64,000 nt of DNA from Lingula anatina (GCA_051362555.1 CM120642.1:28396001-28460000); one strand, 5' to 3'. Positions 11,801 through 32,800 are shown, counted from the first letter of the stretch. Program-made: numbers and translations. Notes: generated by a model not told the origin, from the sequence alone.

Positions 11801-14800
11801 CACAGTCACATTCAACATAGCCATTTTTGCAGAGATATTCATTCAGTGTGCATGTGCATGTGAGTGTGTTTGAATTTTTTTTTTTTGTGCATTCACATGT
11901 GTTTGTGTATACCCAGTATAAGCATATTTCGGCTGTGTTCACAACCAGTTAATCCATGGACTAACTAGTAACATGGTTCAGACTTGACAATGGATCTCCG
12001 CCTCCCAGCAAGGGCAGAGCAATGAAATCTCAGCATACTTTTAAGAGGCTTGCACCATATTTGATCCACAGACTAGTTAGTGTCCGAATCAACTGGCTGT
12101 GAATGCGCTCTTAGTCTTGTGTACAGTGTGGTAGGTGTGACAATTGGTTGAGACAAGTCACAATCCTCCCACTTACCACAGCTTTTACATCAGGGTAGTT
12201 CATGGCAGCGAATGAGGCGGGGAATCCCCCTATAGACCACGCAAACAGAATGATCTCCTCTGGTTTGAAGCCAAGTCTGGTAATAGCATACTGCATCACA
12301 GTGTCCACTGCATTCTGTTCCTGCTCTGGGAATGGGGCTCCCTAGAGGTGTATGGGTAGTATATTGTATATACTAGTATAATCAGAATATAGCAAGTTAA
12401 AGAATAAGGTCCCTTGTTATTACAGATTTAACTATAAAATAGTTAACTATAAAAAAATGCTTGAAGTTGTACAGAATTTCATCAGCTGTGCCATAAGCTT
12501 AAATCAGTTGAGGTTAAGAGGGAGATTAGTATATTCAAAATTTGGAGATACTGTACACTGAATATGCATCATGCATGATTGCCCAAAATTGTGCTTTTCT
12601 TGCACAGAAATGTAAAATATAATAGAAAAACATTCCTTCAAATAAATCCAAAGCATGTAATATAAAGAGGGAAAATTGTTTTGAACGAAACTATTAAAAC
12701 ATGAGGATATAACAGGGAAGTATATCATGAAAACTAACATATTTAAAATGTTTCCCATAAAAAGATCCTCAGGATAAGAGAATAGAAGTGAGGTAGAAGT
12801 ATGTAGGGTCAACTAATAAATAAAGAATAAAATATCCAATCACCTGTTCAGGTATACAGGTATGACGATAAATGTGTACTTACCGTGCTGCCTGAAAACC
12901 CAGGGTGATTCCATCCCAGTACAGAGTACCCCGCATCCATGGGTGTCACCATACAGCCAATTTCATAGAACCCAGCATTCCCTTCACTGCAGACAACCTG
13001 AAATACACTTTTCAATATATTCTCTCTCACATTTCATTACATTAACAACAATGTGTGCTGTTATATGATAATGTTGCATGTACCAGCATCAATGTGTGTG
13101 CTGTTAAATGTTCACTTTCAGCCTACTGGGTACGTGCATGAAGAACTTCAGTGATGAGCCATTAACGACACATGTAGACAATCGCATAAATGATCACAGA
13201 TAAAAACTTCATTAGCTGCATAGACATTGCAATTATTACACTATGTCATGAAGCACATCCCTTTTTTTACTCTATTGTAAAATATCATCATATTACAGAA
13301 ACAGTAACTATTAAAATATTAACCAACTGCAATCCATCCACTGTACACCACTTACCAAATACTTCCCATTGGACATTTCAAAGCTGTCCCTTCTATCAAT
13401 AAACATTGTGTCTATGTGGTTACCATCTGGAGTCTCCACTTTGGCTCGGAGTCCATTTTTCTGAAATTATGACAATAGAGACAATCAGCATACTATAATT
13501 TGGTGTGATTGCTGAATCCAAGCAAGTACTATGAGAGAGAGAGAGAGAGAGAGAGAGAGAGAGAGAGAGAGAGAGAGAGAAAACAGTTTTCTGTTTTTTT
13601 TCAATGTTCAACTTCATTCTTATAAATCTGTGAATTTAATATTTTATATGACTGACCAATAAAAAGAATATGTTACATATGTTAGATTAATATGAAACAA
13701 TCAGCTCCTCCCTCCCCCCCCAAAAAAAAATATAGATAATTATATAAAAATTAATAAAAAAAAGAGAAAGCGTGCAACTACAACAAATATCACATTGAAT
13801 TTCATGTTTTAAGTAAGGCTCAAGCTACAAAATTAATTGTATATGGTTATATTCATTAATAAAACCCTATGTAGCACTTATTTTATTTGAAACCCCCCTG
13901 TGCCATCTTAGACCAAAATCTGGCACACACAGACAACCTTAAACTATCATACCTACCTCTATTAGCTTACTTCTTGCTTCTAAGATAGGGCTAACTGCAA
14001 TGCAAATAGAAAGAAAATAGCTTGCATAGTTCTCATGATACCAATTATATCTGCTGCTTTTGCATGTTACAGATGGAATGATAACAGCAAGTTTAATAGC
14101 ATATAGCCACTACCAATTTTTAATTTCATACTACTGTTATTAACGAACTGAGATGAAAACACATGGTATCACAAAAAGTTCATGTGAGTCAAAGAATTGC
14201 CACTGATTGCAGTGGCAATGTAGACTAATCCTGCCTTTGGAATTTAGACAAAATGTATGTAGCATTCATTTCATTGATGACAAGGTACACGTATATCATG
14301 AAAACATGTAGTAAAGGACGATCGTTGGGCCCAATGCTAAAGCAGGTTTCCACTTCAATATACACTTTAGGACCAGAATAAAGGTTACATAAAGGACATT
14401 ATTGTAGTGTGCAAGGTTTGGGTGGCGCTTTCAATATTTTAAATGCACATCTCTGAAATTGAGAAATTAATGTTTTCCACACAATATTGAATTCTATATG
14501 ATAATAAGTGCACATACTTAAACCTGACAAAACCAAAATCTTACTTCTACTCTCCTTTGTCTAATCAGAACAAAAAAATTAATATGCAATACTTTATAGG
14601 TAATGAGCAGATCATCCAATTAGGCCATAATTCATTCATCATCATAAATGTTTTTTTTTTTTTTTTGTCTTTTTTTCAGTAGAAAAATAAATAGGGATGT
14701 CATTATAGGCAAATGAACGAAACTTTGATTTCCTTGTACAAGAATGGCAAACATAATAAGGTCTATTCCTTTCAGGTCTAACTTCACACAGAAAATATAA

Positions 14801-29800: not shown

Positions 29801-32800
29801 AGTAACAACCATCTACTACTTAATATGTGCTCCTACTTACTTCCATAACACAATGCATAATTTCAAATTAGGTGTAACTCCGCTTCAGACAGCCTTTACA
29901 GTCAAGCTCACAAAGCACCATCCAGCTACCACATCACCAACAATAGTCATATTTGACTACAGTATAACTAACCTGGGCAACAACTATGACACCAACACTG
30001 GAGTGTTCACTGCCATGAGGAAAGGCACTTACTTCTTTAGTATCCACACCCTAACTAATACCAACCAAAATGTGGACCTCTGGATTGAGAAGAATGGGGT
30101 CAGAGTTGTTACCAGTTATGGGAACTCTGGACAGTGTGCCTGTGCCTTTGCCAGTCTGGGGAACAGCGTCACGCTGCAGCTGACAGCCGGAGACAAAATA
30201 ATAGTCAAGGCGACAGGTGGGGAAATCAATGGTGATTCAGGCCAATCACATTCTACTTTCACAGGATATCTCATTTACTCTGGTTAAGACTCAATGCCAC
30301 CATTGCCTACAGACTTGCTTAATTTTATCAAAGTCAGTTCCATGTCCAAGAAGTGGGCTACTTGTTGTAATGGGCAATCTATCAAATGTATTAGCTTTCT
30401 GACACTTTTTAATTTTTGCTAAATCAAGAAATTATGCAAAGCTTCAACAGTACTTCTCCTCTTTCAATGTCCTAAGGACCCTGATCCTTCAAGATGTTTT
30501 TCCACACCACAGTACCACATATAGCGGGTCAATAAATTCAAACAAAATAAATATGAAATAATTTTGTTCAAAGCAATATTTTTCGTAACTCTGTTAACCT
30601 CCGATTCAGAAGTTTTAGAAACTTCATTGGCCTAGTATTGAAAAGTATATTTCAGTGAGAAACAAAATTGATAAATCCTGAAATTTTCAAGTGAAATATT
30701 AGAGTGAGAGAGATGTTTGAAAATTTAAAGTAATCAACCTAGCTGTCACAGTTTTTACTTACAAACCAAAGTGTTCATCAAAGACGTGGCACCAGGATAC
30801 ATCATTCTTCTTCCAAATGTGTGTGCTACCACATAGCTGAAAACACCATTAACTCAACTGAATGTAACACACAGTGCATTGTATGGTCAGTTACAGTGAC
30901 AATTTTTTTCCTAACAACAGGTAATAAATTAATTTTACATTCAAATTGCATTGTATTAGGATAATATTACGCAAGTGACTCGGTTGGATCCCAGAATACA
31001 GGAGTAAAAAAAAATAAATAAAAGCTGTTGTTAAGAAAAAAACGGTTGCTGCTCCTTGATTAAATGAAAAGTTTGTATAACACTGGTCCAAAATTACACT
31101 TAAAATGACAAAGAATGCTAATTTTTTACCATCAAGTTTGTCTGTTGACCAAGATGTGAGCACATGAATAAAAAATGCAGTTTACACATTTTACACTGTC
31201 ATTCCTTTTTTGGGGGGGGTATCATCAAAATTTGTCACAAATGGAATAAACAATTGCCACACTAATTTACATATTTACACATTACCTACGCAATTACAAA
31301 TTGCTAATAATCAGCAATGTCTGCCTAAATTGTCAACTTTACCTGACTATATTGCAAGGAAGAAACTTGATGAGGCTGACAATCCCCCTGGATTTGGCTG
31401 TGCCAGGGAGCTGGATCAGAGGTTTGCTGCCATCACTGAAACAAAAGTCAGTAATTTCTTGGTGAGTGCATATTTGTCTGGTATGACAATGTGACACATG
31501 CTTAAAGATTCGACAATACCAGGAGCAGTAATGTGCATTCAATCTTTTTGTTGCATTAATTTTGTATTTGTAAGACTAAACTGTACACTGCTTTATCTAT
31601 TCTCCAAATCCTAATCTGATTTTTGTCCATTTGTCTGTCTGTCTGACTCTCTGTCTGTTTGTTTGTCTGCCTTTCTGTCTGTCTGTCTTTCTGCCTGCTT
31701 TTCTTTCTGTTTGTCTGTTTGTCTGTCTGTGTGACAACCAAGGCCCATGTCTCACCCTCTGCTGCCTTCTTTCCAACTGAAGTTGACAGGCCAGGCCCAA
31801 AATTCAAAATCATATCTTCTTAATAAACGCTGAATTAAAAAGGAATCATTACTATTCAACAAGAAATTCAGACATTGTGTTATATAATATCTAATCTATC
31901 CACAGTTCCATTCACAAGCAGCCTAACTTAAAGAGAACTTCAAATGGTTTAATACAGTACTTATCTAGTATATGGTTTAATACTGCTTTTTACAGTAGAC
32001 AGTCACAGAGTAAATGTCTCACTCTAATGTTTAATTTTTAAATTTTATTTTCAAACTGGTAACCCTTGGACTTGCAAATGGTTATTATAGGTTTCCTTCT
32101 TTATACTTCAATCCAGCTCACCATATTTTCTGGAGTTAGAGATTTCCTTGCAGCCTGCAGCACAGCAATGAATGTAATATAATCTGTATTGGTAAACCTC
32201 CCTATACCTAGAAGCAAATTAAATGATTACAGATGCACAAGATGCCCAAATGTTCTGCATAAATTACTGGAAAGGTCCCAGTGCTTCCTTTTAATAATAA
32301 CTTTTATAATAAACACTCTAGTCTCAAATTTAAACCCTGTGAATTTTCAGTTGCACACAGACCTTCCACATACTGGTAAATATGAGACTCATTATCTGTA
32401 AATGTTTATTTATCCTAGGAAAGCTGGTCCTTCAAATACAAGAATATTAGTTTTGTAATTGTAAAATTAACAATTCTAAAAATTATAGTTTATCCTGCAC
32501 AAGGTGTAAATATAACTGGTCTCAGAATATATTCTTAACTCACTCACCTCGGAATAAAGTTGATCCCACTATAAGTATAAGAAGTCCTGCTGCCATTCTA
32601 CTCATACTTGCCAGGCCATCCATACTGAACCAATCTAAAATCATACGTAATAGAAATGATAATTCATGGTTTAGTATCATATGTTAAAGATTCAAACTAC
32701 CTGCCCAGTACATCATATAATTATGTAGTGTATCAGAATAACTTTCATTTTTGTGTGTGTGTGTGTGTGTGTGTGTGTGTGTGTGTGTGTGTGTGTGTGT

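What the first reader, a model, noticed from the sequence alone, without database searches (positions are those of the whole stretch)
13995..30762. A seven-gene secreted 'stalk + globular head' cluster hidden antisense inside one intron of ABHD16A
Seen in sequence: ABHD16A exons 30763-30836 and 13957-13994 join in phase (T|TT), which defines a 16.8-kb intron; every other intron of the gene is under 2.5 kb. All seven nested genes lie on the opposite strand and encode signal peptide, then a Cys motif in most, an oligomerising stalk (collagen or coiled coil) and a globular domain. Established: gC1q proteins act as trimeric pattern-recognition or binding proteins. Inference: this is a co-regulated, birth-and-death evolving secreted recognition/defence module, combining six C1q chains with a non-C1q partner, that expanded inside a housekeeping gene. 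It is the best candidate here for an undescribed system.
Basis: partly seen in the sequence, partly recalled or inferred. Interest (0 to 1): 0.85.

Follow-up and report, generated by a model that had tools for sequence, protein, structure and literature searches.

The report
Tandem C1q genes inside brachiopod intron
In the lamp shell Lingula, one 16.8-kb intron of a hydrolase gene holds six back-to-front collagen-tailed C1q genes that likely multiplied on the spot, plus one unrelated, predicted fibrinogen-like gene that is abundantly transcribed in samples where the six are almost silent, so this is likely an ordinary nested gene array rather than a new defence system.

Summary
The layout is real. 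RNA reads splice 30763 to 13994 across 16,768 bp in 4 of 4 runs that covered the joint. Seven antisense genes lie inside. They are not hidden: all seven are RefSeq Lingula anatina models.

Six are collagen-type C1q-like paralogues forming one clade. A 2.5-kb tandem duplication left an eighth, broken copy, and Q1 carries an in-frame stop in this allele, so local birth-and-death is supported.

Co-regulation is not supported. N1 is spliced in 5 of 8 runs and deep in three, while no C1q splice joint was listed and C1q depth stayed near or below 1x (tissues unknown, 6-30% of each run read). N1 belongs to a dispersed, Pfam-less family (864 hits) with a divergent fibrinogen/intelectin-like predicted fold.

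The same architecture is published for insect GMC genes in flotillin-2. Two leads remain: a Cys-x-Cys pair in the calcium-axis loop of four heads, and the unnamed N1 family. No earlier report of this locus was shown by my look-ups.

The parts
8863..36142 (-). Host gene, ABHD16A-like alpha/beta hydrolase (name recalled), 19 coding exons, 538 aa
   Evidence: model; weak Pfam Abhydrolase_1 on exon 12; 38% to L008 over residues 2-523; six host joints, introns 5-10, listed in RNA
30763..30836 (-). Host exon 8 (donor of the long intron)
13995..30762 (-). Host intron 8, 16,768 bp, phase 1
   Evidence: spliced out in 4 of 4 runs
13957..13994 (-). Host exon 9 (38 bp)
15204..17771 (+). N1: predicted secreted protein with Cys segment, short amphipathic helix (65-82) and divergent fibrinogen/intelectin-like head. 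Exons 15204-15444, 15842-16032, 16465-16643, 17141-17307, 17722-17771. The first ATG is likely not used (A>G at 15204 and read starts at 15205-15206 in X7-X9).
   Evidence: identical to RefSeq XP_013406644.1; spliced in RNA; fold
18652..19640 (+). Q1: collagen (13 GXY) plus gC1q; exons 18652-18898, 19228-19640; in-frame TAG at 18706-18708 in this allele
   Evidence: RefSeq XP_013406565.1 is open; trace RNA of about 1x at most
20484..21372 (+). Q2: collagen (8 GXY) plus gC1q; exons 20484-20727, 20969-21372
   Evidence: XP_013406650.1, 4 differences
22586..23676 (+). Q3: collagen (8 GXY) plus gC1q; exons 22586-22820, 23273-23676 (alternative ATG at 22565)
   Evidence: XP_013406649.1, 4 differences
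24605..25556 (+). Q4: collagen (10 GXY) plus gC1q; exons 24605-24863, 25126-25556; lacks the head Cys pair
   Evidence: XP_013406647.1, 3 substitutions and a 3-residue gap
26071..26439 (+). Remnant: 3' end of a Q3-like gene, truncated and frameshifted, carried along by the duplication that made Q4/Q5
   Evidence: 88.6% to 23553-23915
26567..26819 (.). Palindromic MITE-like insertion upstream of Q5; attracts multi-copy reads, so depth here is not Q expression
   Evidence: inverted arms; loose ends and strand-switch joints
27003..27944 (+). Q5: collagen (10 GXY) plus gC1q; exons 27003-27264, 27529-27944; 85% identical to Q4; lacks the head Cys pair
   Evidence: identical to XP_013406648.1
29333..30287 (+). 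Q6: collagen (10 GXY) plus gC1q; exons 29333-29564, 29872-30287; no Cys before the stalk
   Evidence: XP_013406651.2, 8 differences

Best explanation
Intron 8 of a Lingula hydrolase gene is spliced out whole and holds six related collagen-tailed C1q genes and one unrelated gene, N1, on the opposite strand; the six likely arose by tandem duplication of one gene that had landed there, and N1 likely arrived and is regulated separately. Inferred steps: antisense orientation keeps the passengers' splice and poly(A) signals off the host transcript, so the intron tolerates them. Unequal crossing-over copied whole gene units; the latest event copied the Q3 tail plus Q4 (about 23553-26061) into 26071-28431, giving Q5 and a dead Q3 tail. 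Surviving copies are mostly kept under purifying selection while single alleles decay. The Q proteins would be secreted, would trimerise through collagen and gC1q, could link into larger oligomers through N-terminal cysteines, and most likely act as binding or opsonin-type proteins made in a narrow tissue, stage or induced state. N1 would be a separately expressed secreted binding protein of a divergent fibrinogen-related lineage.
For: Splice joint in 4 of 4 runs. All six Q genes share one phase-1 coding intron between stalk and head and form one clade against 30 (careful tree, 98/87) or 57 (quick tree, SH-aLRT 97) outside rows. Duplication scar: 1,612 bp at 85.7%, 370 bp at 88.6%, 120 bp at 78.3%. 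dN/dS 0.39 (Q4/Q5), 0.27 (Q2/Q3), 0.25 and 0.23 (Q1 against Q2, Q3); deeper pairs are saturated. N1 and Q expression differ sharply in 8 runs. N1 paralogues lie on other contigs. In L002, an unnamed intron-bearing homologue, the same phase-1 intron is only 168-207 bp, so the cargo is not universal. Precedents: 12 antisense GMC paralogues plus one unrelated gene in a flotillin-2 intron (PMC1891103); 62% of oyster C1qDC genes are tandem duplicates (PMC6835236); nested genes typically arise by insertion of young duplicates into long introns (PMC5174743 abstract).
Against: No other Lingula C1q protein was among the 120 listed of 231 hits, so monophyly against Lingula's own other paralogues is untested. 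No genome was held, so genome-wide nesting rates and synteny in other brachiopods are untested. The order of arrival of N1 and the Q ancestor is not shown. No Q transcript was clearly seen: 'narrowly expressed' rests on open frames, dN/dS below 1 and RefSeq models, and some Q genes may be silent. Only 6-30% of each run was read, tissues are unknown, 19 and 13 weaker joints were not displayed, and most X7-X9 reads were under 95% alike to the window. N1 and the Q proteins are both predicted secreted heads of lectin-type superfamilies, which a shared purpose would also predict.
Confidence: 0.75

Rival explanations
1. A co-regulated recognition module: N1 and the Q chains are made together in one cell type or on challenge and work together, as ficolin-like and C1q-like starters of the brachiopod complement-like pathway.
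For: All seven share orientation and a secreted stalk-plus-head design. N1's family folds like ficolin/intelectin heads. Coiled-coil FReD and collagen-C1q proteins have both been proposed as complement activators in spiralians (PMC9835746 passages). Conserved co-regulation has been proposed for the GMC cluster (PMC1891103 abstract).
Against: N1 is spliced in 5 of 8 runs and deep in X7, X8, X9, while no Q joint is listed in any of the 8. No shared upstream sequence between N1 and any Q gene, and no kappaB-like site in the 700 bp upstream of any of the seven ATGs (recalled consensus, promoters not mapped). N1's family is dispersed.
Confidence: 0.1
2. The Q array is a specialised non-immune set (shell, chaeta, burrow mucus or metal handling), in which a Cys-x-Cys pair has replaced the calcium-binding aspartates on the trimer axis.
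For: Q1, Q2, Q3 and Q6 carry Cys-x-Cys in the loop aligned with the C1QL1 loop whose D208, D210 and D214 bind axial calcium (PMC12749725 passages); 0 of 114 non-nested homologues have it. Q4 and Q5 lack both cysteines. Invertebrate C1qDC proteins have shell and byssus roles (PMC10672478 passages).
Against: None of the seven accessions occurs in the supplement of a 2026 shell-proteome comparison (PMC13425148; its identifiers may not be RefSeq for every data set). In a secreted protein the pair could be a plain disulphide. The alignment register in this loop is uncertain by two residues. One MRE-like match in seven upstream regions is no signal.
Confidence: 0.1
3. The Q array is largely a decaying relic: most copies are silent or near-silent and are drifting to loss.
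For: Near-zero RNA in 8 runs; a nonsense allele in Q1, a remnant, and up to 8 amino-acid differences between window and RefSeq alleles.
Against: Five of six frames are intact here and all six in RefSeq; dN/dS is 0.23-0.39 in unsaturated pairs; splice sites are intact.
Confidence: 0.05

Closest known systems
Insect GMC oxidoreductase cluster in a flotillin-2 intron (Iida et al. 2007, PMC1891103; abstract and section 5 read)
   Same: Tandem paralogues, all in one orientation, antisense inside one large intron of an unrelated host, with one unrelated gene among them; proposed birthplace of family members.
   Different: 12 enzyme genes in 83 kb, conserved across four insect orders. Here six secreted C1q genes plus N1 in 17 kb; conservation beyond Lingula was not testable and the intron is short in L002.
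Secreted C1q-like type I proteins (signal peptide, collagen, gC1q) and tandem C1qDC clusters of bivalves (PMC6835236, passages); rotifer C1q-like proteins with about 30-aa collagen (PMC8878817, passages)
   Same: Domain order, short collagen stalk, tandem expansion by likely unequal crossing-over.
   Different: Collagen stalks are rare in bivalves. The passages seen do not describe intronic clusters. Four Lingula heads have a Cys-x-Cys pair in the axial loop that 0 of 114 homologues show.
Vertebrate C1QL1-3 (closest single-domain solved structures, E about 1e-21)
   Same: gC1q head recognised by sequence; N-terminal cysteines, short collagen and head (C1QL layout recalled).
   Different: About 31-36% identity to C1QL-type sequences. 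The acidic calcium-axis loop is not conserved. Not grouped with the C1QL clade in either tree.
Fibrinogen-related domain superfamily: intelectin, ficolin, tachylectin 5A, coiled-coil FReD proteins (for N1)
   Same: Family member P0078 matches intelectin-1, fibrinogen and ficolins (Foldseek E about 1e-5, 145 matches at E<=0.001; VIA Z 10.7, rmsd 4.8, 203 aligned). At least 8 of 80 members carry the FReD-type lead-in directly before the shared domain.
   Different: N1 has a short helix in place of that lead-in, has no Pfam hit and scores only Z 6.1, rmsd 4.7, 157 aligned with intelectin-1. Identity is about 7-20% and no ligand site was shown.

Membership tests
Opposite-strand nested protein-coding genes | Host transcript splices across the whole region | tested here: met
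   joint in 4 of 4 runs
Opposite-strand nested protein-coding genes | Nested gene transcribed from the strand opposite the host | tested here: met
   N1 in stranded runs X4 and X6; for Q1-Q6 orientation rests on sequence only
C1q-like type I (collagen) C1qDC proteins | C-terminal gC1q domain | tested here: met
   6 of 6 above the Pfam cut-off
C1q-like type I (collagen) C1qDC proteins | Collagen Gly-X-Y stalk before the head | tested here: met
   8-13 triplets in 6 of 6; only Q1 and Q4 pass Pfam's Collagen cut-off
C1q-like type I (collagen) C1qDC proteins | Signal peptide and secretion | tested here: inconclusive
   hydropathy and cleavage-pattern heuristics only
C1q-like type I (collagen) C1qDC proteins | Trimer formation and ligand (microbe) binding | not testable with these tools
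   needs protein work
C1QL-type calcium-axis gC1q heads | Three aspartates in the beta5-beta6 loop on the trimer axis | tested here: not met
   five of six heads have no acidic residue in the aligned window and Q3 has two (site from PMC12749725)
Tandem birth-and-death gene array | Adjacent paralogues forming one clade | tested here: met
   98/87 support; other Lingula paralogues were not in the tree
Tandem birth-and-death gene array | Recent duplicates together with broken copies | tested here: met
   Q4/Q5 unit, remnant at 26071-26439, Q1 stop allele
Co-regulated functional gene cluster (N1 + Q1-Q6) | Members expressed together | tested here: not met
   N1 spliced in 5 of 8 runs, no Q joint listed in any of the 8; tissues unknown, challenge state unknown
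Co-regulated functional gene cluster (N1 + Q1-Q6) | Linkage conserved across species | not testable with these tools
   no animal genome collection; only L002 shows the homologous intron, and it is short
Co-regulated functional gene cluster (N1 + Q1-Q6) | Products interact | not tested
   no complex job was run
Fibrinogen-related (FReD) superfamily, for N1 | Pfam Fibrinogen_C match | tested here: not met
   no hit for N1; 4 of 80 family members hit Fibrinogen_C and 6 of 80 COLFI
Fibrinogen-related (FReD) superfamily, for N1 | FReD-like fold | tested here: inconclusive
   weak for N1 itself (Z 6.1; Foldseek E 0.04 at best); clear for relative P0078
Fibrinogen-related (FReD) superfamily, for N1 | Carbohydrate or acetyl-group binding | not testable with these tools
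   needs a glycan array
ABHD16A orthologues, for the host | Named orthology | not tested
   name recalled; tools gave Abhydrolase_1 and unnamed homologues

The most novel reading that the evidence does not exclude
This intron is the cradle of a brachiopod-specific C1q lineage that may make up much of Lingula's small collagen-C1q repertoire (10 counted genome-wide in Luo et al. 2015). In four of its six members a Cys-x-Cys pair replaces the calcium axis of the trimer, giving a metal- or redox-sensitive recognition head. These chains are switched on in a tissue or challenge not sampled here and act with N1, a member of a widespread unnamed branch of the fibrinogen/intelectin lectins, as a two-part recognition cassette.
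Probability: 0.08. Interest if true: 0.65.

Novelty: new member of a known kind. Interest (0 to 1): 0.27.

Why it matters
As a system it is ordinary: nested antisense arrays and tandem C1qDC expansions are both well described. Three smaller points have value. (1) It is a plain counter-example to a 2024 survey stating that collagen-bearing C1q is lost in Brachiopoda (PMC11312191, passage); Luo et al. 2015 had already counted 10 collagen+C1q cases in Lingula (Supplementary Table 30). Whether these six are among those 10 was not checked, and only two of them pass Pfam's Collagen cut-off. (2) The Cys-x-Cys axial loop is a testable structural oddity. (3) N1 points to a large animal domain family without a Pfam model (864 hits at E<=0.001; named top hits from brachiopod, hemichordate, amphioxus and echinoderms) that seems to be a divergent fibrinogen/intelectin branch and deserves a family model and a ligand test.

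Tried and rejected
Mis-assembly or a missed internal host exon: rejected by the RNA joint and by finding no host-exon copy in the intron. Apparent RNA at 20610-20650 in X5 and X6: rejected as reads of another collagen (at least 7 differences per read, loose ends on both sides). Depth at about 21.7-22.5 kb and 26.0-27.1 kb: taken as repeat-derived (for the second; both bins lie wholly or largely outside coding exons). Low depth over Q regions in stranded X6 is mostly in the host's direction and likely unspliced host RNA. The look-up of sequencing runs: no RNA holder listed; nine same-species runs were offered, eight were laid, X3 was not. No whole genome held. N1 against Pfam and PDB sequences: nothing (relative P0073). 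Atlas search on a host exon gave only sub-0.9 hydrolase leads. A homo-trimer prediction for N1 was never run because the queue was full, so oligomerisation of N1 is open. Upstream motif scans were uninformative because 5' ends are not mapped. Literature: ABHD16A + intron + nested gave one unrelated paper; Lingula + C1q or C1qDC searches showed no title or abstract on this locus; supplement searches of PMC4595640, PMC13425148 and PMC13121700 found no entry for these genes. Gerdol et al. 2018 (Dev Comp Immunol 82:7), the survey of Lingula immune genes, did not come up as a held paper in these searches and I did not see it; it may describe these genes. Trees used 63 and 36 rows chosen by hand from the 120 domains kept (of 125 scanned); most redundant fish CTRP4 rows and four RefSeq alleles of the nested genes were left out.
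Full report
Organism and host gene. Exon queries hit Lingula anatina RefSeq proteins at 97-100%, so the window is from this brachiopod. The host gene runs on the minus strand from 36142 to 8863 in 19 coding exons; the joined frame gives 538 aa without a stop and all introns are GT-AG. Intron 8 is 13995-30762 (16,768 bp, phase 1); the next largest is 2,493 bp. The name ABHD16A is recalled: tools gave a weak Abhydrolase_1 hit and 38% identity over residues 2-523 to an unnamed homologue (L008). 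No genome was held.

The intron is real. RNA reads join 13994 to 30763 in 4 of 4 runs laid over the joint (8, 7, 7 and 12 reads), together with the neighbouring host joints. An unnamed metagenome contig with an intron-bearing homologue (L002) has an intron at the same place and phase that is only 168-207 bp, depending on the donor chosen. The intron position is therefore shared with another organism, but its cargo is not.

Seven genes inside. N1 (15204-17771, five coding exons) and Q1-Q6 (two coding exons each, split by a phase-1 intron between stalk and head) are all on the plus strand. All have an N-terminal hydrophobic stretch (heuristic). The Q proteins have 8-13 Gly-X-Y triplets and a gC1q head above the Pfam cut-off. 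Six of the seven have cysteines before the stalk. All seven are RefSeq models on one 1.5-Mb contig: XP_013406644/645 (N1), 565 (Q1), 647 (Q4), 648 (Q5), 649 (Q3), 650 (Q2), 651 (Q6). N1 and Q5 are identical to the window; the others differ at 4-8 positions. Q1 has an in-frame TAG at codon 19 in the window where RefSeq has Gln.

Expansion in place. The Q proteins are 36-85% identical. Their heads form one clade against 30 outside sequences (98/87) and against 57 in a quick tree (97). No other Lingula C1q protein was among the 120 listed of 231 hits, so Lingula's other paralogues are not in these trees. dN/dS is 0.23-0.39 in the four unsaturated pairs. This fits birth-and-death turnover under purifying selection.

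Co-regulation is not supported. I laid 8 of the 9 offered runs, four at 90% and four at 80% likeness. N1 is spliced in X4, X6, X7, X8 and X9; its first joint has 3, 2, 148, 90 and 119 reads. It is not spliced in X1, X2 or X5. In stranded X4 and X6 it is read opposite to the host. No Q splice joint is listed in any run (19 and 13 weaker joints were not displayed). Depth over Q exons is near or below 1x once cross-mapping collagen reads and repeats are set aside, with only traces over Q1. Limits: 6-30% of each run was read, tissues and challenge state are unknown, and most reads of X7-X9 are under 95% alike to the window. N1 shares no upstream sequence with any Q gene, and its closest paralogues (61% and 55%) lie on other Lingula contigs. 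The simplest reading is two independent passengers in one intron.

What N1 is. It has no Pfam hit but 864 relatives at E<=0.001; ten top hits that I looked up are uncharacterised proteins of Lingula, Ptychodera, Branchiostoma and echinoderms. Its AlphaFold model (mean pLDDT 86) has an 18-residue helix before a well-predicted head that matches intelectin-1 weakly (Z 6.1, rmsd 4.7, 157 aligned; no Foldseek match at E<=0.001). At least 8 of 80 aligned relatives carry the fibrinogen-type lead-in directly before the shared domain. One of them, P0078, matches intelectin, fibrinogen and ficolin clearly (E about 1e-5; Z 10.7, rmsd 4.8, 203 aligned). The Atlas also gave Fibrinogen_C as the nearest named family, as a lead only. 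I infer that N1 is a divergent fibrinogen-related protein with a short helix in place of the lead-in. Oligomerisation and ligand binding are untested; the complex queue was full.

An oddity in the heads. Q1, Q2, Q3 and Q6 have Cys-x-Cys in the loop that aligns with the C1QL1 loop whose three aspartates hold calcium on the trimer axis (PMC12749725 passages). Q4 and Q5 lack both cysteines, and 0 of 114 non-nested homologues have the pair. A plain disulphide is the default reading in a secreted protein; a soft-metal site is possible. Loss of axial acids need not prevent trimers (otolin-1 mutants, PMC8211825 passages).

Comparison with what is known. Over a tenth of human and mouse genes host a nested gene (bioRxiv 10.1101/2023.05.02.539096, passages), and nesting typically comes from young duplicates entering long introns (PMC5174743, abstract). 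Tandem duplication drives C1qDC expansion in oysters (PMC6835236, passages). Brachiopods are said to have few secretory C1qDC proteins (PMC8878817, passages). Luo et al. 2015 list 10 collagen+C1q cases in Lingula (PMC4595640, passages and Supplementary Table 30), while a 2024 survey calls collagen C1q lost in brachiopods (PMC11312191, passages), which this locus contradicts. Also seen in passages: PMC9835746, PMC10672478, PMC13425148 (supplement searches), PMC13121700 (supplement search 91). I did not see Gerdol et al. 2018 on Lingula immunity, which may cover these genes.

Verdict. Observation confirmed with three corrections; interpretation partly supported. It is a new member of a known kind (nested antisense tandem array of type I C1q-like genes, plus an unrelated passenger), interest 0.27. 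The more novel reading, a cysteine-axis C1q lineage acting with N1 as a cassette, has probability about 0.08.

Noticed in passing
window 36142 (minus) and 36425-44136 (plus): A tubulin-tyrosine-ligase family gene (Pfam TTL; TTLL11-like is my recall) begins head-to-head with the host gene, its first ORF about 280 bp from the host ATG: a likely bidirectional promoter.
   Followed up: no
window 56397-60287: DIRS-type retrotransposon layout (class recalled): gag-like ORF, overlapping RT / RNase H / Dam-like ORF and a recombinase-like ORF without a Pfam hit.
   Followed up: no
window 52286-52612 and 60942-62491: SOUL haem-binding family exon at 52339-52608 on the minus strand and similar-looking ORFs near 61-62.5 kb; possibly two or more paralogues around the retrotransposon.
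   Followed up: no
window 47851-51006: Duplicated array of 401-bp and 160-bp units.
   Followed up: no
window 193-1431: Major facilitator superfamily ORF of 412 aa.
   Followed up: no
window 15204-15206: In X7, X8 and X9 the first ATG of N1 reads GTG and many molecules begin at 15205-15206, so the RefSeq start is likely too far upstream; a later Met gives a more usual signal peptide.
   Followed up: partly
window 26567-26819: Palindromic MITE-like element, abundant in all eight RNA runs through multi-copy reads.
   Followed up: partly
proteins P0004-P0152: A widespread animal domain family with no Pfam model, also found behind PAN, EGF, Sushi, F5/8 or SUEL domains and in tandem copies; predicted divergent fibrinogen/intelectin fold.
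   Followed up: partly
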